A stretch of DNA of 64,000 bases from Minisyncoccota bacterium (lineage in GTDB: Bacteria > Patescibacteriota > Minisyncoccia > Phycocordibacterales > VMEP01). How positions within the stretch are numbered: the stretch's first letter is position 1; every line of letters begins with the position of its first letter. Shown piece by piece: positions 28,582-56,307 of this stretch. Both the position numbers and the translations under genes were made by a program. Location: assembly GCA_041661305.1 (NCBI GenBank), contig JBAZUR010000001.1, positions 234,101-298,100 on the forward strand, written 5' to 3'. Below the pieces are notes generated by a model. It did not search any database, was not told the origin of the DNA, and saw only the letters and a list, made by a program, of their open reading frames with translations.

Positions 28582-29037
28582 TTGACCAAACTTGACTTTA
28601 AGATACTGGCAATACTAACCACCATCGCTCTGTTTATTGGTGCGATGATTGCAACCGCCACCGAAAGCAAAACGCTTTTGTTTCTGGTAATAACCGCTTT
28701 CGTCACCTTTTGGGTAGGCGTAGCGTGGGCGTCTTTTCTGACCGAGCGTGGAATGCGGGAAAAATTCAGCCACCCACTCCCGCTCATCGACGAAGACGGG
28801 AACCTTCATCTTTTCATGAAGGTCGGGGGCTACTACAAAGTTCTCGCGTGTCTGAACTCTCACCGTGAAGCCGGAGAACATCTGTACGTACTTCGTGCAA
28901 CAAGTGGCGGTGAGGACGGCAAGGTTTTACTCGCATGGGCAGAAGAACGTCTCAATCTACCAACCAATTTCCAGGTCGTCAAAATGACCGAACAGCGTGG
29001 GGAGAGAATACGGATAACGTCCTTCGTCTTCGAGTAA
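28582..29037 (+). CDS. Hypothetical protein with an N-terminal 2-TM anchor and a cytoplasmic domain, in a GC-rich island
   Basis: AGGAGA Shine-Dalgarno 5 nt upstream of a TTG start. About 50% GC. Followed by terminator AATCGCCCGCTATATGCGGGCGATTTTT at 29053-29086. Confidence 0.5.
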   Translation: MTKLDFKILAILTTIALFIGAMIATATESKTLLFLVITAFVTFWVGVAWASFLTERGMREKFSHPLPLIDEDGNLHLFMKVGGYYKVLACLNSHREAGEHLYVLRATSGGEDGKVLLAWAEERLNLPTNFQVVKMTEQRGERIRITSFVFE

Positions 29038-35915: not shown

Positions 35916-36404
35916 TCAAGCGGTACAGATAACACTCATTTCCACCATCCGCCCAAGCGGAATGTCGTCCGATGAACACTCGGAAACGGGGTCAATGATT
36001 TCGACGAAACCTCGGCCGTCGTCAGGGTCACCTTCGTAGCCGGTAATTTTGAACGACACCTGAACTCCGTTGTTCAAAGTGAATTCACAACTGTCGTTGA
36101 GTTCGCCGCGGATAAAGCTCGGAATCTTCAGCGCCATCTGTAAACCGCGAATTTCCTTTTCCGCGATAATCTTTGCCGTGTCGTTGGTGAACCGGAGGTA
36201 CCCCAACTCGTCGCCCCTACAGTGAAACGCGAGTTGTTGTATTCCGTTCCCAATGGGCGCGTCGTCGGGAAAACTTTCCCAATGTGACACCTCTCGTGCT
36301 CCGATATCGCACAGATCCAAAAAGGTCTCGGTCAAGAGGGCGTGTTGGGTCAGGAAAACGTAGAAAAACAGGTGGTTGTTTCGCGCAAGCGCGTTTTTGT
36401 CCAT
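35916..36404 (-). CDS. Hypothetical protein (162 aa) in a GC-rich island
   Basis: AAGGAG Shine-Dalgarno 7 nt upstream. About 50% GC. Cys-containing acidic protein with no recognised domain. Bounded by the bidirectional terminator. Confidence 0.5.
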   Translation of the reverse strand: MDKNALARNNHLFFYVFLTQHALLTETFLDLCDIGAREVSHWESFPDDAPIGNGIQQLAFHCRGDELGYLRFTNDTAKIIAEKEIRGLQMALKIPSFIRGELNDSCEFTLNNGVQVSFKITGYEGDPDDGRGFVEIIDPVSECSSDDIPLGRMVEMSVICTA

Positions 36405-38012: not shown

Positions 38013-38603
38013 ATGAAAGCGACCGGAGCCGGGGTAAGACCGGGCCAAGGCAGTGCTCAAGCACCACTCGAGGTAGCGCCAACGCGGAAAGGACCGCGCC
38101 CGCCACAAATCGTTGTGGTCGCAAGAGTTCCAGGTGAGCTGAAGTCAGAAGGTGTCCGTATGGTTGGAGCCTACCAACCACTCCTTCTCGATAACGCAAA
38201 CCAAGAGCATGGTGGCGACGCATTTCGTCTTTTTTGTACAAGTGCTTCCTATAAGGTTGAGGACGAGGTCGAAATCTCGGGACAAGTCCGGATCCTCACC
38301 GCAAACGGAAGCAACGGCACCGCAGCTGAGATTATTGGGATCCAGATTTCTGGCTTCCTCAAGACGCTCGGCAAAGCAGTGGCCAAAATGCCGGGAAAGG
38401 AAACTGACCTAGCGACAAACGGCGAGCCACTACCTGTTCCCCGGGGGATTTTACCGGGAGAGTTGATTGCACTAATTCACGAAATGAACGCAGTCGTCGT
38501 CGGCAAAAAAGAATCCGAACTACTTTTGGCTCTTGCGAAAAGCGACCTGGGGAAAACCCGCCTGGACATACGGAAGGATGTCCTCGAATATCCCCCGCAA
38601 TAG
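38013..38603 (+). CDS. Hypothetical protein (196 aa) in a GC-rich island
   Basis: AGGAG Shine-Dalgarno 8 nt upstream. About 55% GC. Followed by terminator GAAGCCCGCGTTCACGCGGGCTTTTC at 38626-38652. No recognisable domain. Confidence 0.5.
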   Translation: MKATGAGVRPGQGSAQAPLEVAPTRKGPRPPQIVVVARVPGELKSEGVRMVGAYQPLLLDNANQEHGGDAFRLFCTSASYKVEDEVEISGQVRILTANGSNGTAAEIIGIQISGFLKTLGKAVAKMPGKETDLATNGEPLPVPRGILPGELIALIHEMNAVVVGKKESELLLALAKSDLGKTRLDIRKDVLEYPPQ

Positions 38604-51846: not shown

Positions 51847-51956
51847 AAATATCGGGCAATTATGACATATTTTGTTGTTGTTGACAACTCACTCATATTG
51901 CGGTTAAATCAGTGAAGTTCGCTAGTCCTATCAACAAAACAGAGGAGTTCTCGTTA

Positions 51957-52175
51957 ATGGAAAAACATTTCGTCGCATACGTCATCAGCCGTCACGGCCA
52001 ACAGCCGTATGCAGTTAACAGGATGATCTATCGCAAATCGCGTATTGTCATCCAGTCGATGGCCGATGTCAAAAAACTGGAAAAAGAACTGTACGAATCC
52101 CACTTCAGGGGGCACAAGAAATACGCCGGCGACTGCTGTACTCTCGTCTCTATCCAGCCGATGCCAATCAAATAA
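51957..52175 (+). CDS. Hypothetical protein (72 aa), GC-rich, inserted antisense within the suf cluster
   Basis: GAGGAG Shine-Dalgarno 9 nt upstream of the ATG (MEKHFVAYVISRHGQQPYAV...). About 48% GC. Followed by terminator AAAGCCCCCAACTCGGGGGCTTTT at 52197-52224. Confidence 0.45.
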   Translation: MEKHFVAYVISRHGQQPYAVNRMIYRKSRIVIQSMADVKKLEKELYESHFRGHKKYAGDCCTLVSIQPMPIK

Positions 52176-52220
52176 CGGCCTTAACGGCCGACACACCAAA
52201 AGCCCCCAACTCGGGGGCTT

Positions 52221-52940
52221 TTATAATACTTCTAAAAATCCAGAGACTAAAAGTTCTTGCGCTTTGTTTTCTTCTAGCCCGCGAGACATCGGATAAAAAA
52301 GTTCATCACCTGAAATATCTTTTATTGAGAGTGAGTGTGAACATCGAACATCGTTACTTGCAATATCAAGGGATGGAATAGCGTCCACTCGCGCTTCGGG
52401 AGACAAGATTAAAAATGAAGCCGATTCTTCCCCCACCGCTTTCACTTCTTTTGCCATCGCAATATCACTCCTATATATGACGTGCGCTGTGTCTTTAAGC
52501 ACACCCTTCACTTCAATTTTTGAAACAGTTTCGGAAGCTTCGTGGTAAACCTTGTGATAGACATCAACTTCTGAATCGCCAGATAAATCATAACGGCTCG
52601 TTATCGAAGCGCTTGCGCCACGACCCGCCAAAATAATATGAATGTCATTTTTTCCTTTTGCTTTCCCTTCACACGATTCACGATATTCAAACGTTGCTCC
52701 TTCCTCTACGTGAACAACAATAAGTCTTGATTTAGACAAATCATTTTCCAAAACTTTTCTTTCTCCCTGAGCAACTTCAATCACCTCTCCACCTTTTTGA
52801 ACAATAGACAAAAATTCCTCCGAAAAAGAAGATGCGATTTTGAGTCCATATTTAAAAGCATTCGGACCGGCATAAGTATATAAAATTTCTTTAGTATTTT
52901 TCATATCTTTATCCAACACTACCTTCCATCTCAAGCTCAA
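52221..52940 (-). CDS. sufD: Fe-S cluster assembly protein SufD (short form)
   Basis: 239 aa. Beta-helix repeat region homologous to the SufB C-terminus (DVRCSHSLSIKDIS). Confidence 0.7.
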   Translation of the reverse strand: MSLRWKVVLDKDMKNTKEILYTYAGPNAFKYGLKIASSFSEEFLSIVQKGGEVIEVAQGERKVLENDLSKSRLIVVHVEEGATFEYRESCEGKAKGKNDIHIILAGRGASASITSRYDLSGDSEVDVYHKVYHEASETVSKIEVKGVLKDTAHVIYRSDIAMAKEVKAVGEESASFLILSPEARVDAIPSLDIASNDVRCSHSLSIKDISGDELFYPMSRGLEENKAQELLVSGFLEVL

Positions 52941-54258
52941 TCAACTTATTTAGTTCAATTGCGTATTCAAGTGGCATGGCTTTAACAATTGGCTCTAGAA
53001 ACCCACCAACAATAAGGCGCTCCGCTTCCCTTTCGGAAAATCCACGTGAGCGGAGATAAAAAACTTCATCATCACCAAGCCGTCCAACCTTTGCTTCGTG
53101 AGAAATATTAACCCTCTTGTTATCGTTCTTTGTAGACGGGTAAGTATTTGAAACTGATTTGTCGTCTAAAATTAAAGCATCGCAAACAACAGAAGAGACT
53201 GCTCCAGTTGCTCGCTTTCCTATTTGTACAAAACCGCGATAAGTAGAGATGCCACCATCTTTAGAAACTGATTTTGAGCGAATTGTAGAAACAGTATCCG
53301 GCGCCAAGTGTAGAGCTTTTGCTCCAGTGTCCTGATTCTGCCCTTCCCCCGCGAGAACTATCCCTAAACTATCGGCCTTGGCTCCACGCCCCAAAAGTAC
53401 TGACGATGGATAAAGCATAGTCACACAAGAACCCATATTGCCGTTGACCCACTGCATCTCACCATCTTCATAAACCATCGCCTTCTTTGTATTCAAGTTG
53501 TAGGTATTACGTGACCAATTTTCAATACTTAGATATTTTACTTTCGCTCCTTTCAGCACAAAAACCTCCACACAACCAGCATGAAGTGACGAGGATGTAT
53601 ATCGTGGCGCAGAACATCCTTCAATATATTCAATCTCCGAACCTTCATCAGCAATAATTAGAGTGTGTTCAAACTGCCCCGATGACGAGCGATTCATTCT
53701 AAAATAAGCTTGCAATGGCAATCCAACTTTTACCCCTTTAGGAACGTAAATAAAAGTGCCACCACTCCAAGCTGCGCCATGTAGCATTGTGAATTTGTGG
53801 TCAGAGGATGGAACGCAGTCGGTCATAAAATATTTTTCCACAAGCTCTGGATATTTTTGCACTGCCACATCCATGTTTTCAAAAATTACTCCTTTATCGG
53901 CGAGTGACTTTTGCAAATTGTGATAAACAATTCCTGAGTCGTATTGTGCACCCACTCCACCTAAATATTCTCTTTCTGCCTTTGGAATACCAAGTTTTTC
54001 GAAAGTATCCGTGATTTCTTTTGGAAGCTCTTTCCAGTCTGTTTTCTCTTCAACGGCTGGATCAACATAGTAGACCAAGTCGTCCAAATTGAGCTGAGAG
54101 AGCGACGGCCCCCAGTCTGGTATCTTTGTCTTCTCCCACAGAGAAAAGGCCTCCAAGCGCTTTTTTAGCATCCAGGCGGGTTCTTTTTTGCTCTCTGAAA
54201 TATGGCGCACCAAAGACTCAGAAAGACCCATATTTACTGTTTTCTCCTCTATTGACAT
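52909..54258 (-). CDS. sufB: Fe-S cluster assembly protein SufB
   Basis: 449 aa, canonical SufB including CSAP and the C-terminal GFLEP region. Confidence 0.9.
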   Translation of the reverse strand: MSIEEKTVNMGLSESLVRHISESKKEPAWMLKKRLEAFSLWEKTKIPDWGPSLSQLNLDDLVYYVDPAVEEKTDWKELPKEITDTFEKLGIPKAEREYLGGVGAQYDSGIVYHNLQKSLADKGVIFENMDVAVQKYPELVEKYFMTDCVPSSDHKFTMLHGAAWSGGTFIYVPKGVKVGLPLQAYFRMNRSSSGQFEHTLIIADEGSEIEYIEGCSAPRYTSSSLHAGCVEVFVLKGAKVKYLSIENWSRNTYNLNTKKAMVYEDGEMQWVNGNMGSCVTMLYPSSVLLGRGAKADSLGIVLAGEGQNQDTGAKALHLAPDTVSTIRSKSVSKDGGISTYRGFVQIGKRATGAVSSVVCDALILDDKSVSNTYPSTKNDNKRVNISHEAKVGRLGDDEVFYLRSRGFSEREAERLIVGGFLEPIVKAMPLEYAIELNKLIELEMEGSVG

Positions 54259-54332
54259 AGAGATGAATTATATTGTAATATCACGCCAGTTGCAAATCCA
54301 ATTAAATTTAAACAAAAAAGAGGAGGGTTGCC

Positions 54333-54575
54333 GTGAGTGCTGACTTCAACGCAAATGCCATACTGAAAGGCAACGAAGACTTCGTCGCTTTTCTCCATGA
54401 ACGTGCAAGGTGGGAAAACATCCCCGCAACCTGCGACAAGAAGTGGCTTGCAGGTTTTTGGCAAAATAACAGGGGTTTGCTTTCACACCTCTTCGTTATG
54501 GAAACCGGCAAGGTGCTCTTCGTTCCAAACGATACTGCTTTCTTCCAGCAAGCCGCCGAAGCCTATCAAGGCTAG
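54333..54575 (+). CDS. Hypothetical protein (80 aa), paralog 1 of a tandem pair
   Basis: AGGAGG Shine-Dalgarno 6 nt upstream of a GTG start. KGNEDFVAFLHERARWENIPATCDKKWLAGFWQNN...QQAAEAYQG. Followed by terminator CCCCGCATCACGCGGGG plus T-run at 54594-54622. Confidence 0.5.
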   Translation: MSADFNANAILKGNEDFVAFLHERARWENIPATCDKKWLAGFWQNNRGLLSHLFVMETGKVLFVPNDTAFFQQAAEAYQG

Positions 54576-54699
54576 CTCTCTTCCGTCCCAACCAAAAACC
54601 CCGCATCACGCGGGGCTTTTTAACATATTAACGTTTTCGAAAAACATGATAGTATCAACGCAGTTGCAACTTTAACTCAACCAATCACCGGAGGGCGAA

Positions 54700-54942
54700 A
54701 TGAACACCAGTGAAATCAAAAAGGACGCAATTAAGGGCAATGAAGAATTTGTTGCGTTCTTGCACCAACACGCGAAACAGGCGAAAATTCCCAGCAGTTG
54801 CGACAAGGCATGGCTGGCGAGTGTATGGCAACGAAACAAGGTTGTTTTCATGTTTCATTTCGCTGTACAAAAAGGGGAATCAGGCTCAACCCCGCCCACT
54901 GATGAATTTCTCAGGCAGGCCGCCGAAGCCTATCAAGGCTAG
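54700..54942 (+). CDS. Hypothetical protein (80 aa), paralog 2 of a tandem pair
   Basis: GGAGGG Shine-Dalgarno upstream of the ATG. KGNEEFVAFLHQHAKQAKIPSSCDKAWLASVWQRN...RQAAEAYQG. Followed by the near-identical terminator CCCCGCATCGCGCGGGG at 54960-54988. Confidence 0.5.
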   Translation: MNTSEIKKDAIKGNEEFVAFLHQHAKQAKIPSSCDKAWLASVWQRNKVVFMFHFAVQKGESGSTPPTDEFLRQAAEAYQG

Positions 54943-55027
54943 TTCTCTTCCGTCCCAACCAAAAACCCCGCATCGCGCGGGGCTTTTTAATTTTCTAAAA
55001 GCTATCTGCCTAAAAACTAAAAGCTTC

Positions 55028-56284
55028 TTAATAATTTCTTAACCTATCTGCCTTCTCGTGTTGGCGGATTTTTTCGTGTACTTTAGCTTCAATCTGGCGA
55101 ATACGTTCACGTGTCACACCGAACTCCTGTCCCACCTCTTCAAGTGTATGCATTACTCCATCAACAAGACCATGTCTCATTTCAAGAATTTTTCTTTCCT
55201 TTGGAGAAAGATCATTTAAAATTTCTTTAACCTGATCAGAAAGAATACGGCGCGAAGATTCCTGCGCTGGAGAAAGAATAGTCTCATCAGCAATAAATTC
55301 ACCGAGAGTTGATTTGTCTTCATCATCACCGATTGGTTTTTCAAGGGAGACTGTATCTTGATTGATATTTTCAATCATGTGGATTTTTTCTACATCGATT
55401 CCCATTTCAGTTGCAATCTCTTCTGGTAATGGGTCACGTCCCAAATCTTGAGACAAACGTCGTGATACTTGTTTGTATTTAGCGATTGTTTCCACCATGT
55501 GCACAGGAATACGAATTGTTCTTGATTGATCAGCAAGAGCGCGTGTAATAGCCTGGCGAATCCACCATGTTGCATAGGTTGAAAACTTAAATCCTTTGGT
55601 CCAATCGAACTTATCAACCGCTTTATGTAAACCAAGATTTCCTTCCTGAATAAGATCGAGGAGTGTTAAGTCTGAGCTACGTCCAACGAATTTCTTTGCA
55701 ATAGAAACAACGAGGCGAAGGTTGGCGCGCCAGAGCAAATCTCTCGCTTCTTTATCCCCTTTTTCAATACGGCGGGCATACTCCTTTTCCTCATTTGCAG
55801 AAAGAAGCGGGTATTGTCCAATCTCTCTAAGATACATTTGAATAGCGTCGTACGAAGATGATTCACGGCCATAACCTCTTTTCTCTAAAATCTCTTTGGC
55901 ATCAACATCAAGTAAATTTCCACCCTCAAGAACGTCTATGCCAGCACTACCAAAGCGTTCGTAAAGTTCATCCAAAAATAAAATATTATTTTCAACGTTT
56001 GGGAATTCTTTTAAAATTTCATCATAGGTGATGAAACCACGCTTTTTACCCTTAGCGATAAGGATATCTGCTTTATCAACCAACAAATCATGCTTTGTTT
56101 TCTTTACTGGTTTTGCTGGTTTAGCCGGCTTCTTAGCCTTCACAGGTTTTTTTACAGCCACTTTCTTTACCTTCTTTGCAGGTACTTTCTTTTTTGGAGC
56201 AACCTTTTTAGCCACCTTTTTCTTAGCTGGTTTCTTCACCTTTTTTGGTGCTACTTTTGTTTTTTTGGCTTTTGCTTTTGGCAT
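55028..56284 (-). CDS. rpoD: RNA polymerase sigma-70 factor RpoD with a lysine/alanine/proline-rich N-terminal extension
   Basis: 418 aa. Regions 1.2-4.2 conserved ([29 protein letters not shown], region 4 HTH). The first roughly 60 aa read [26 protein letters not shown]... Confidence 0.9.
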
Positions 56285-56307
56285 ATTTTTAAAATTATAA
56301 AATTAAA

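What the first reader, a model, noticed from the sequence alone, without database searches (positions are those of the whole stretch)
54300..55010. Tandem duplicated GC-rich module: two 80-aa paralogs, each with its own RBS and a near-identical terminator
Two units of about 360 bp each (54300-54660 and 54665-55010) encode 80-aa paralogs. They share KGNE(D/E)FVAFLH..A....IP..CDK.WLA..WQ.N and a C-terminal (Q/R)QAAEAYQG. Each is followed by CTCTTCCGTCCCAACCAAAAACCCCGCATC(A/G)CGCGGGGCTTTTTAA. The module sits divergently next to sufB and before rpoD, and is GC-richer than its surroundings. A recently duplicated, compositionally foreign small gene implies selection for dosage or diversification, for example immunity-like or anti-defence-like proteins. 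The family is unknown to me.
Basis: seen in the sequence. Interest (0 to 1): 0.5.

Follow-up and report, generated by a model that had tools for sequence, protein, structure and literature searches.

The report
Recombining small-gene array beside sufB
Two old, diverged copies of an uncharacterised 80-residue helical protein, found only in one narrow group of Paceibacteria (CPR bacteria), sit in a strain-variable array between sufB and rpoD, and their near-identical tails come from recombination between copies, not from a recent duplication.

Summary
Window 54333-54575 and 54700-54942 encode 80-aa paralogs (49% identical). Each has its own promoter, RBS and terminator, and 72 nt at the 3' end are 70/72 identical.

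- The duplication is old. Synonymous sites are saturated (pS 0.83) except in the last 10 codons (0.23).
- The gene is a clade resident. Its dS matches flanking sufB/rpoD, and orthologs are under purifying selection (omega 0.07-0.17).
- The identical tails are a gene-conversion or unequal-crossover tract.

Across 12 related arrays, copy number is 1-3 and at least 5 paralog types occur in different orders. Promoters follow array position, coding bodies follow type, and 3' ends tend to follow genome. N- and C-halves are reshuffled at the conserved TCDK codons (PHI p<0.001).

The nearest outgroup has rpoD-sufB adjacent with no such gene. One ingroup genome uses the same promoter platform for an unrelated ORF.

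Function is unknown. My best guess (about 30%) is partner-specific binding proteins, immunity-like. A Suf-linked thiol role (about 25%) is the main rival.

The parts
54252..54296 (.). Back-to-back bidirectional control region shared with sufB. On the + strand: -35 TTGACA (54252-54257), 18-nt spacer, -10 TAATAT (54276-54281) for small gene 1. On the - strand: -35 TTGCAA (54295-54290), 17-nt spacer, -10 TATAAT (54272-54267) for sufB, whose ATG (54258) lies 8 nt after the -10.
   Evidence: Promoter scan. A 48-nt core is almost invariant in 11 arrays, although synonymous sites of the flanking genes are 45-63% diverged. Promoter activity itself is inferred, not measured.
54287..54295 (+). CAGTTGCAA motif at the predicted transcription start of unit 1. 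It coincides with the sufB -35 element.
   Evidence: 4 exact matches in the window against 0.79 expected. It is present upstream of nearly every unit in every array, internal ones included. It marks the point where slot-specific promoter sequence changes to type-specific 5'UTR sequence.
54320..54327 (+). Shine-Dalgarno GAGGAGGG of copy 1.
   Evidence: Read from the sequence. It lies 5 nt before the GTG start.
54333..54575 (+). Copy 1 ('A type'), an 80-aa soluble five-helix protein.
   Evidence: ORF. Orthologs at 61-91% aa identity with omega 0.07-0.17. AlphaFold pLDDT 86.
54552..54623 (+). Homogenised 3' tract of copy 1. It comprises the last 7 codons (AAEAYQG), the stop, the CU-rich tract CTCTCTTCCGTCCC (54576-54589), the A-run, the terminator hairpin (54599-54615) and the T-run.
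   Evidence: 70/72 identical to 54919-54990. pS is 0.23 here against 0.83 in the body. Terminator called.
54628..54669 (+). Internal-slot promoter: TTAACG (54628-54633), 16-nt spacer, TGn-extended -10 TAGTAT (54650-54655), then CAGTTGCAA (54661-54669).
   Evidence: My own reading. It scores 8/12, below the scan's threshold of 9/12, so one search did not list it. Support comes from conservation of the same block upstream of the internal units of five other arrays.
54690..54695 (+). Shine-Dalgarno GGAGGG of copy 2.
   Evidence: Read from the sequence.
54700..54942 (+). Copy 2 ('B type' body with an A-type C-terminal end), 80 aa, same fold.
   Evidence: ORF. 49% aa identity to copy 1. B-type orthologs in L004, L013 and L015. 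AlphaFold pLDDT 84.9 with the same helices.
54919..54990 (+). Homogenised 3' tract of copy 2, with a terminator hairpin (54966-54982) flanked by an A-run and a T-run. It can also terminate convergent rpoD (stop at 55028).
   Evidence: The downstream flank (TTTTCTAAAAGCTATCTGCC...) is the one that follows an A-type unit in L004. Bidirectional use is inferred from the sequence.

Best explanation
What it is (well supported): a clade-specific array of autonomous expression cassettes, inserted antiparallel into the rpoD-sufB spacer of one genus-level group of Paceibacteria.

Cassette anatomy:
- Each cassette is a promoter, a short 5'UTR beginning at CAGTTGCAA, a strong RBS, an ORF of about 80 codons and an intrinsic terminator.
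- The ORFs belong to an orphan family of soluble, roughly five-helix proteins. At least five long-diverged types (A-F) share a conserved scaffold: N14, H22, P31, C34, K36, W43 and the C-terminal QAAExYxG. They differ mainly in helix 4 and the following loop.
- The first cassette shares a tightly conserved back-to-back promoter region with sufB.

How the array evolves (well supported): homologous recombination at three short conserved joints.
- Joint 1: the promoter/AGTTGCAA region.
- Joint 2: the ACCTGCGACAAG (T-C-D-K) codons.
- Joint 3: the CAAGCCGCCGA (Q-A-A-E) codons plus the terminator.
These events add, delete and reorder cassettes, swap N- and C-halves between types, and homogenise ends within a genome. 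The window's near-identical terminators are one such tract: copy 2 is a B-type body that carries copy 1's A-type tail.

What the proteins do (inferred, about 30%): they are small cytoplasmic binding proteins. Specificity would be set by the variable helix-4 face, giving each strain its own repertoire of partner-specific binders, immunity- or antagonist-like.
For: Orphan family:
- 17 clusters in 5.8e9 sequences.
- Only 3 true family clusters in 1.84e9 representatives.
- No Pfam, NCBIfam, PHROG, PADLOC or PDB match.

Real coding genes and old paralogs:
- Omega is 0.07-0.17 between orthologs.
- pS between the window copies is 0.83 in the body and 0.23 in the last 10 codons (Fisher p 1e-4).

Resident in the clade: dS of the A type is close to dS of sufB and rpoD.

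Clade-specific insertion:
- All arrays with flanks lie between sufB and rpoD.
- The outgroup with 80% SufB identity has rpoD-sufB adjacent and no family member.

Recombination:
- Bodies cluster by type, 5' regions by slot, and 3' ends by genome.
- Within-array tails are 86% identical against 75% between arrays (p 0.0017).
- PHI p<0.001.
- L006_2 against L015_2 shows 3/96 differences in the N-half and 52/96 in the C-half (Fisher 2e-16). The break falls right after ACCTGCGACAAG.

Replaceable cargo: L017 uses the same platform for an unrelated ORF.

Not an artefact: L007 reproduces the array independently.
Against: - The functional claim has no direct evidence. There is no toxin, defence gene or mobile element nearby, no PADLOC or PHROG hit and no structural similarity to known immunity proteins.
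- Orthologs are under purifying, not positive, selection.
- The array sits in a core housekeeping neighbourhood and shares a promoter region with sufB, which fits a Suf/redox role as well.
- Promoters, transcription starts and terminator function are predicted only.
- Several mosaic examples come from short metagenome contigs (about 1-2 kb). Chimeric assembly cannot be fully excluded there, although exact runs across the junction between types are at most 20 nt. The key homogenised arrays (window, L001, L012) are on 86-476 kb contigs.
- 3' homogenisation is weak in L004 and L015.
Confidence: 0.55

Rival explanations
1. Suf-linked thiol/redox accessory protein. The nearly invariant Cys34 sits at the N-terminus of helix 3 (IPATCDK), where it could be a reactive thiolate. 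It would act as a persulfide or redox relay, or as a modulator of Fe-S assembly, co-regulated with sufB through the shared bidirectional promoter.
For: - Divergent, interlocked promoters with sufB, with a 48-nt core almost invariant in 11 arrays.
- Cys34 is present in 17 of 18 aligned family sequences, and the model places it at a helix start.
- The neighbourhood has a thiol/redox theme: the suf operon, a Thioredoxin_4/DsbA gene, an AhpC/Redoxin gene next to the array in L001, and a CxxC-rich ORF in the same slot in L017.
Against: - P0011 (slot 1 of L012) lacks the Cys.
- The nearest outgroup runs the same suf operon without the gene.
- Strain-variable copy number, type shuffling and replacement by an unrelated ORF are unusual for a core pathway component.
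- A SufU-like NifU_N gene is already present in the operon.
Confidence: 0.25
2. Small DNA-binding autoregulator. The helical protein would bind the AGTTGCAA(CT) element at its own transcription start. In slot 1 this element is also the sufB -35, so the protein would control itself and the suf operon.
For: - The motif is conserved upstream of nearly every unit, including internal ones that lack a sufB promoter.
- AGTTGCAACT is a perfect palindrome upstream of copy 2 (read from the sequence).
- There is weak motif resemblance to INT_rpt units (E 7.8e-4).
Against: - hhalign probability is only 17%, and the Pfam INT_rpt model does not hit the proteins at E<=10.
- pI ranges from 4.8 to 9.2 with no consistent positive charge.
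- Motif conservation can be explained by its promoter/TSS role and by gene conversion.
- Multiple shuffled paralogs are atypical for an operator-specific repressor.
Confidence: 0.1
3. The 3' identity reflects selection on an RNA element. The CU-rich tract after the stop codon would pair with the Shine-Dalgarno sequence of its own mRNA (translational auto-occlusion), or act as a 3'UTR-derived anti-SD small RNA. This could add to recombination rather than replace it.
For: - Every unit in every genome has a pyrimidine-rich tract between the stop and the hairpin, although its sequence differs.
- MFE folds of both window transcripts pair the SD with this tract.
- Mean predicted pairing probability is 0.38 against 0.12 for random replacement tracts (Wilcoxon p 0.016). 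6 of 13 units exceed all controls.
Against: - 5 of 13 units show no such pairing (L001_A, L005_A, L008_A, L004_C, L010_E).
- The units are not independent, so the p-value is optimistic.
- Any CU-rich tract will be predicted to pair with a purine-rich SD.
- There is no Rfam match and no covariation is possible in the invariant hairpin.
- The homogenised tract extends into the coding sequence with sharp edges, as expected for a conversion tract.
Confidence: 0.15
4. Recent tandem duplication or assembly artefact of one foreign gene.
For: The 76-nt 3' repeat is 96% identical, and GC3 is elevated.
Against: - The bodies are saturated at synonymous sites.
- Each copy has its own orthologs elsewhere.
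- An independent assembly of a slightly different strain gives the same array.
- dS of the gene matches its neighbours.
Confidence: 0.02

Closest known systems
Orphan immunity-gene arrays of polymorphic toxin systems (colicin/pyocin Im proteins, CDI/Rhs/T6SS orphan immunity clusters). This comparison rests on my own knowledge.
   Same: Small (about 80-110 aa), often all-helical cytoplasmic proteins. They occur in tandem with strain-variable number and order, often with their own promoters, and are rearranged by recombination at conserved segments. Discrete specificity types sit on a shared scaffold.
   Different: - No toxin or delivery genes nearby, and no mobile element.
- The location is a core rpoD-sufB spacer.
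- Orthologs are under purifying selection.
Concerted evolution of bacterial paralogs by gene conversion or unequal crossover (for example tufA/tufB and rRNA operons). This comparison rests on my own knowledge.
   Same: Within-genome homogenisation of segments, so that paralogs resemble each other more than their orthologs do. It is seen here for the 3' tails of the window, L001 and L012, and for the 5' regions of L012.
   Different: Only short flanking segments (about 70-90 nt) are homogenised, while the coding bodies stay at about 50-60% nt identity. Recombination also reshuffles half-genes and cassette order, so it diversifies as well as homogenises.
Pfam INT_rpt (PF14882, 'Integrase repeat unit')
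   Same: A shared short pattern, E-[DE]-[FW]-x-A-F ... I-P-x-x-[CP]-D-[KQ]-x-[WY] ... W, over about 38 residues. The family profile hits a 1205-aa INT_rpt repeat protein at E 7.8e-4.
   Different: - Profile-profile probability is 17%.
- The Pfam model does not match the proteins.
- X is a single-domain 80-aa protein with an extra C-terminal helix and tail.
- No function is known for INT_rpt, and full-text hits gave no characterisation.
Integron gene-cassette arrays. This comparison rests on my own knowledge.
   Same: Tandem small ORFs with a conserved inverted repeat at each 3' end, and variable cassette number and order.
   Different: - Each unit has its own promoter.
- The 3' repeat is a simple 6-bp G-C hairpin with A and T runs (about 30 nt), too short and simple for an attC site.
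- No integrase or attI is seen in the loci.
- Rearrangement joints are ordinary homology segments inside the UTRs and coding sequence.
IscX/YfhJ-type small helical modulators encoded with Fe-S assembly operons. This comparison rests on my own knowledge.
   Same: A small, soluble, helical protein encoded next to an Fe-S cluster biogenesis operon.
   Different: - No sequence or structural similarity was detected.
- It is transcribed divergently from its own cassettes.
- It is multi-copy, strain-variable and absent from the nearest outgroup.

Membership tests
Any curated protein family (Pfam-A, NCBIfam) | Score at or above the family's gathering cut-off | tested here: not met
   Best Pfam hits were DUF6287 (12.2 bits against a cut-off of 26.3) and Prok-JAB (13.5 against 25). 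NCBIfam gave nothing meaningful.
INT_rpt (PF14882) | Match to the Pfam model | tested here: not met
   The Pfam model was not reported at E<=10 for either window protein.
INT_rpt (PF14882) | Significant profile-profile similarity to INT_rpt units | tested here: inconclusive
   The family profile hits the INT_rpt repeat protein P0012 at E 7.8e-4, summed over 4 stretches. hhalign against 12 units of P0012 gives probability 17% over 38 columns.
Known anti-phage defence or phage protein families (PADLOC, PHROGs) | HMM match to a defence-system or phage protein family | tested here: not met
   0 of 9 members match PADLOC. The best PHROG E-value is 0.22.
Bacteriocin/polymorphic-toxin immunity proteins | Cognate toxin gene adjacent, or a fold match to a known immunity protein | tested here: not met
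Bacteriocin/polymorphic-toxin immunity proteins | Strain-variable tandem repertoire of discrete specificity types | tested here: met
   1-3 copies, at least 5 types, and a different order in 12 arrays.
Bacteriocin/polymorphic-toxin immunity proteins | Specific binding and neutralisation of a toxin | not testable with these tools
   This needs protein interaction or protection assays.
Multigene family under concerted evolution or gene conversion | Paralog segments more alike within a genome than between genomes, plus statistical evidence of recombination | tested here: met
   Within-array tails are 86% identical against 75% between arrays (p 0.0017). PHI p<0.001. Mosaics have Fisher p down to 2e-16.
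Integron gene cassettes | attC site (57-141 bp with paired core sites), promoterless cassettes and an integrase | tested here: not met
   The 3' element is a terminator hairpin of about 30 nt. Each unit has a promoter-like block. No integrase is among the called genes of any locus.
Sulfur-relay / Fe-S accessory proteins (SufE, SufU, TusA, IscX) | Sequence or fold similarity to a member, and an invariant active Cys | tested here: not met
Rfam RNA families (for the conserved 3' element) | Covariance-model score at or above gathering | tested here: not met
   The best hit scores 22.6 bits against a gathering score of 54.

The most novel reading that the evidence does not exclude
The rpoD-sufB spacer of this Paceibacteria clade is a dedicated 'plug-in' expression platform. 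A fixed bidirectional promoter, 5'UTR and RBS drive interchangeable small-protein cassettes. Three built-in microhomology joints let cassettes and half-genes recombine combinatorially. The result is a strain-specific repertoire of binding specificities, that is, a self-diversifying immunity or host-interaction locus in an ultra-small episymbiont genome. The CU-rich 3'UTR may additionally gate translation.
Probability: 0.2. Interest if true: 0.7.

Novelty: new variant of a known kind. Interest (0 to 1): 0.42.

Why it matters
- CPR/Patescibacteria genomes are tiny and full of uncharacterised small proteins, and very few of these families have any evolutionary or mechanistic description.
- This locus is a compact and unusually clear example of modular recombination. 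Promoter, N-half, C-half and tail each have their own history. It lies inside a core housekeeping neighbourhood.
- It identifies a genus-restricted protein family with a confident new-looking fold.
- If the proteins prove to be partner-specific binders, the array would be a marker of strain-level conflict or host interaction in episymbiotic bacteria.
- If instead they are Suf-linked thiol proteins, they would be a lineage-specific add-on to Fe-S biogenesis.
- It is also a caution for sequence-only reading. Near-identical terminators beside diverged coding bodies indicate conversion, not recent duplication.

Tried and rejected
- **Family libraries.** Pfam, NCBIfam, PHROGs, PADLOC and PDB sequence searches gave nothing above noise.
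- **Rfam on the module.** Only sub-threshold chance hits.
- **INT_rpt lead.** I followed it by cutting 12 repeats from P0012 and running hhalign. The probability was 17%, so it is not accepted as homology. Full-text searching turned up no characterisation of INT_rpt.
- **Extra copies.** tblastn found none elsewhere in the 64-kb window.
- **Terminator as a genome-wide repeat.** Three other CCCGC...GCGGG hairpins exist (13997, 29059, 38630), but they lack the CU-rich spacer and flanks. Only the generic hairpin style is shared.
- **GC-rich orphan genes elsewhere in the window.** They do not share the array's promoter, UTR or tail architecture.
- **Integron-cassette idea.** Rejected, because the hairpin is too short, each unit has its own promoter and there is no integrase.
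- **Assembly artefact or chimera.** Rejected for the window through the independent assembly L007. It is unlikely for the mosaics, because exact runs across the junction are at most 20 nt.
- **Paper on the LiPW_30 genome.** The search found none.
Full report
**1.

- Window 54333-54575 (GTG start) and 54700-54942 (ATG start) are 80-codon ORFs on the + strand. Their products align without gaps at 34/70 identities (E 9e-26).
- They share KGNE(D/E)FVAFLH, IPxxCDKxWLA, a tryptophan and the C-terminal QAAEAYQG.
- Each ORF is preceded by a strong Shine-Dalgarno sequence (GAGGAGGG at 54320-54327; GGAGGG at 54690-54695).
- Each is followed by a hairpin with six G-C pairs and a T-run, which the terminator scan calls (54599-54615 and 54966-54982).
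- The repeat period is 367 nt.
- A 76-nt direct repeat spanning the last codons, the 3'UTR and the hairpin is 96% identical. Its core, 54552-54623 against 54919-54990, is 70/72 identical with sharp edges.
- No further copy exists in the 64 kb.
- The module lies between sufB (52909-54258, minus strand, divergent) and rpoD (55028-56284, minus strand, convergent), with dnaG beyond.
- Overall GC is only mildly raised: 0.47-0.50 against 0.409, z about 2.
- Third-position GC is clearly high: 0.57 and 0.53 against 0.355 +/- 0.07 for 47 long ORFs.

**2. These are real protein-coding genes of an orphan family**

- Orthologs from other metagenomes differ mostly at synonymous sites, with omega 0.07-0.17.
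- No Pfam, NCBIfam, PHROG, PADLOC or PDB sequence match exists.
- The word-indexed search of 5.8 billion clusters found 8 relatives, and 17 with a broader profile.
- The exhaustive HMMER scan of 1.84 billion representatives found only three true family clusters. It also gave a marginal hit (E 7.8e-4) to a 1205-aa protein made of Pfam INT_rpt units.
- The shared pattern E[DE][FW]xAF...IPxx[CP]D[KQ]x[WY]...W is suggestive. Profile-profile comparison gives only 17% probability, so I do not accept homology.
- AlphaFold gives confident and concordant models for both paralogs (pLDDT 86.0 and 84.9). The helices are at 15-27, 36-45, 47-58 and 68-76, plus a less certain N-terminal helix.
- The proteins are soluble, have no signal peptide or transmembrane segment by inspection, and have pI from 4.8 to 9.2.

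**3. The duplication is old; only the tail is young**

- Between the two window copies, the proportion of synonymous differences is 0.83 in codons 2-70, which is saturated. It is 0.23 in codons 71-80. The contrast is significant (Fisher p 1e-4).
- Each copy has its own orthologs elsewhere.
  - A-type genes occur in L002, L003, L004, L005, and more distantly in L001, L008 and L012.
  - B-type genes occur in L004, L013 and L015.
- The window's copy 2 is a chimera. Its body is B type. Its last codons (EAYQG), CU-rich 3'UTR and downstream flank are those that accompany A-type genes (L003, L004_A). B-type orthologs end in ETYKG or ESYKG.

**4. The gene is a resident of a narrow clade, not recent foreign cargo**

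- For the A type, dS against the window is 0.76 (L002) and 0.75 (L005). For sufB the values are 0.70 and 0.91, and for rpoD 0.63.
- dN is about ten-fold higher than in the neighbours (omega 0.11-0.17 against about 0.02).
- All loci with enough flank show the same placement, sufB on one side and rpoD-dnaG-rpoC on the other.
- SufB identity falls from at least 94% in array-bearing genomes straight to 80%.
- In that nearest outgroup, rpoD is followed directly by sufB across a 146-nt spacer. No family member is detectable in six frames.
- The array is therefore an innovation or insertion of one genus-level lineage. NCBI names for members include Candidatus Paceibacterota bacterium and Parcubacteria group bacterium LiPW_30.

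**5. The locus is a recombining cassette array**

- I extracted 21 units from 12 distinct arrays. Copy number is as follows.

| Copies | Arrays |
|---|---|
| 1 | L002, L003, L005, L008, L010 |
| 2 | window, L001, L013, L015 |
| 3 | L004, L012 |
| At least 2 (contig fragment) | L006 |

- Types appear in different orders.

| Array | Order of types |
|---|---|
| Window | A-B |
| L001 | A-C |
| L004 | B-C-A |
| L012 | F-E-A' |
| L013 | B-D |
| L015 | B-E |

- Coding bodies cluster by type.
- The 100 nt upstream cluster by position. Slot-1 units all carry the sufB-proximal promoter, whatever their type. Internal units carry a different conserved block, ATATTAACGTTTTCGAAAAACATGATAGTATCA.
- 3' tails are more alike within an array (mean 86%) than between arrays with equally diverged bodies (75%; Mann-Whitney p 0.0017). 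L001 shows 100% identity, and L012 has an array-specific UTR shared by all three units.
- The upstream regions of L012_2 and L012_3 are 87/88 identical, while their bodies are 58% identical.
- Inside the genes, N- and C-halves have separate histories.
  - L006_2 against L015_2 differ at 3/96 sites in codons 2-33 and 52/96 in codons 37-69 (Fisher 2e-16).
  - L004_1 against L015_1 show the reverse pattern.
  - L010_1 combines an L004_1-like N-half with an L015_2-like C-half.
- The break falls right after ACCTGCGACAAG, the T-C-D-K codons.
- A PHI permutation test on 167 informative sites gives p<0.001.
- Exact runs shared across that junction by different types are at most 20 nt. That is shorter than common assembler k-mers (Logan k=31 is from my own knowledge), so chimeric assembly is unlikely. 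The homogenised arrays of the window, L001 and L012 are on contigs of 86-476 kb.
- An independent assembly of a slightly different strain (L007, 9 mismatches in 3627 nt) reproduces the window's array.
- Against L003 the region is itself mosaic. dS is 0.10 for the small gene, 0.29 for sufB and 0.72 for rpoD. L003 lacks copy 2.

**6. The control region**

- Between sufB and unit 1 lies a back-to-back promoter pair.
  - On the + strand: TTGACA, 18 nt, TAATAT.
  - On the - strand: TTGCAA, 17 nt, TATAAT.
  - Each -35 element lies inside the other's initial transcribed region.
- The sufB ATG is 8 nt after its -10 and has no Shine-Dalgarno sequence. sufB is therefore probably leaderless (inference).
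- A 48-nt core is almost invariant in 11 arrays.
- The AGTTGCAA element is both the sufB -35 and the predicted start of the small-gene transcript. It is also kept upstream of internal units, where no antisense -10 exists. There it marks the joint between slot-specific and type-specific sequence.
- In L017 (SufB 94% identical) the same platform drives an unrelated 95-aa ORF with a hydrophobic N-terminal helix and two CxxC pairs, and a different terminator. The platform there still has TTGACA, ATTATATTGT, CCAGTTGCAA and GGAGGGG.
- In L006 an unrelated 79-aa ORF is coupled behind a B-type gene, ahead of the usual CU-rich 3'UTR.
- The platform is thus conserved while the cargo is replaceable.

**7. 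The 3'UTR**

- Every unit has a pyrimidine-rich tract between the stop and the hairpin, followed by CAAC(C)AAAAA. Its sequence differs between arrays.
- Folding the predicted transcripts pairs this tract with the Shine-Dalgarno region in both window units.
- Across 13 units, mean pairing probability is 0.38 against 0.12 for random replacement tracts (p 0.016). Five units show none.
- I treat translational occlusion as a secondary, unproven idea.
- The A-run and T-run flanking the hairpin make it plausibly bidirectional. The last one can also terminate rpoD.

**8. Composition**

- GC3 is high in all 21 units (mean 0.58, range 0.46-0.65). It stays high across orthologs separated by dS of at least 1, so it is maintained rather than decaying.
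- Two readings remain open.
  - GC-biased gene conversion at a recombination hotspot. This process has been proposed for bacteria (PMC4450053).
  - A property common to lineage-specific genes of this genome. Three other GC3-rich ORFs in the window are also orphans.
- I cannot separate these two readings.

**9. Function**

Shown:
- a conserved scaffold with a variable helix 4 and loop that defines the types;
- purifying selection within types;
- a strain-specific repertoire;
- a replaceable slot.

Inferred, with my probabilities:

| Hypothesis | Probability |
|---|---|
| Partner-specific binding proteins, immunity- or antagonist-like | about 0.3 |
| Suf-linked thiol/redox accessory using Cys34 | about 0.25 |
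| DNA-binding autoregulator at AGTTGCAA | about 0.1 |
| Something else | about 0.35 |

- Against the first: no toxin, no defence hit, and a core-genome location.
- Against the second: a Cys-less member, absence from the outgroup, and the variable repertoire.
- Against the third: no consistent basic charge and no convincing DNA-binding fold match.

**10. Verdict**

- It is an uncharacterised, genus-restricted small-protein family in a recombining cassette array.
- The evolutionary process is of a known kind. The family, its fold and the modular platform are new.
- Interest is moderate.

Noticed in passing
window 51912-52175 (+), overlapping 51954-52199 (-): There is a gap of about 400 nt inside the suf operon, between sufS and sufD. 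It holds an 87-aa ORF antisense to the operon. That ORF is conserved at protein level in L001, L002, L003, L008, L010 and L012 (47-100% aa; 106 aa in L012 and L010). It is better conserved than the minus-strand ORF one gene caller chose. No Pfam match.
   Followed up: partly
window 54256-54272 (- strand): The sufB start codon lies 8 nt downstream of a TATAAT box and has no Shine-Dalgarno sequence. The same holds in all relatives, and the outgroup L016 also has a very short upstream region. sufB is probably translated from a leaderless or near-leaderless mRNA.
   Followed up: partly
L017 2716-3003 (- strand in the locus): In a genome with 94% identical SufB, the same promoter/5'UTR/RBS platform drives an unrelated 95-aa ORF instead of the 80-aa family. 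That ORF has a hydrophobic N-terminal helix and two CxxC pairs, and no Pfam match.
   Followed up: partly
L006 718-957: An unrelated 79-aa ORF starts 7 nt after the stop of a B-type copy. The usual CU-rich tract and CAACCAAAAAC follow it, so it was inserted between the coding sequence and the 3'UTR of a cassette. Only a sub-threshold DUF749 hit.
   Followed up: partly
window 35916-36404 (-), 28582-29037 (+), 38013-38603 (+): Three other ORFs with unusually high GC3 (0.63, 0.55, 0.52) have no Pfam domain. Two of them end at CCCGC...GCGGG terminators (29059, 38630). Lineage-specific genes of this genome seem generally GC3-rich.
   Followed up: partly
L001 6663-7121; L003 5440-5590; L005 2540-2620; L010 6240-6440; L012 4808-5575: The whole sufD-sufB-rpoD neighbourhood is plastic.
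- L001 has an AhpC/Redoxin gene between the array and rpoD.
- The L003 spacer resembles that gene's 3' end.
- L005 and L010 have a GGAGGTTGA(A/G)CCTCC hairpin.
- L012 has a Peptidase_M15 gene, and L003 has two extra ORFs, between sufB and sufD.

   Followed up: no
window 54259-54266 and the equivalent positions in other arrays: The 8 nt between the sufB -10 and its ATG come in two co-varying haplotypes on the + strand, AGAGATGA and TGCGACAA, differing at 4 positions. They split the arrays into two groups that do not follow paralog type.
   Followed up: no
window 56000-56300: The N-terminus of RpoD is a long lysine/alanine/proline-rich low-complexity tail (KKxxAKK repeats). This produces a strong AT-skew dip and a low-GC stretch.
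   Followed up: no
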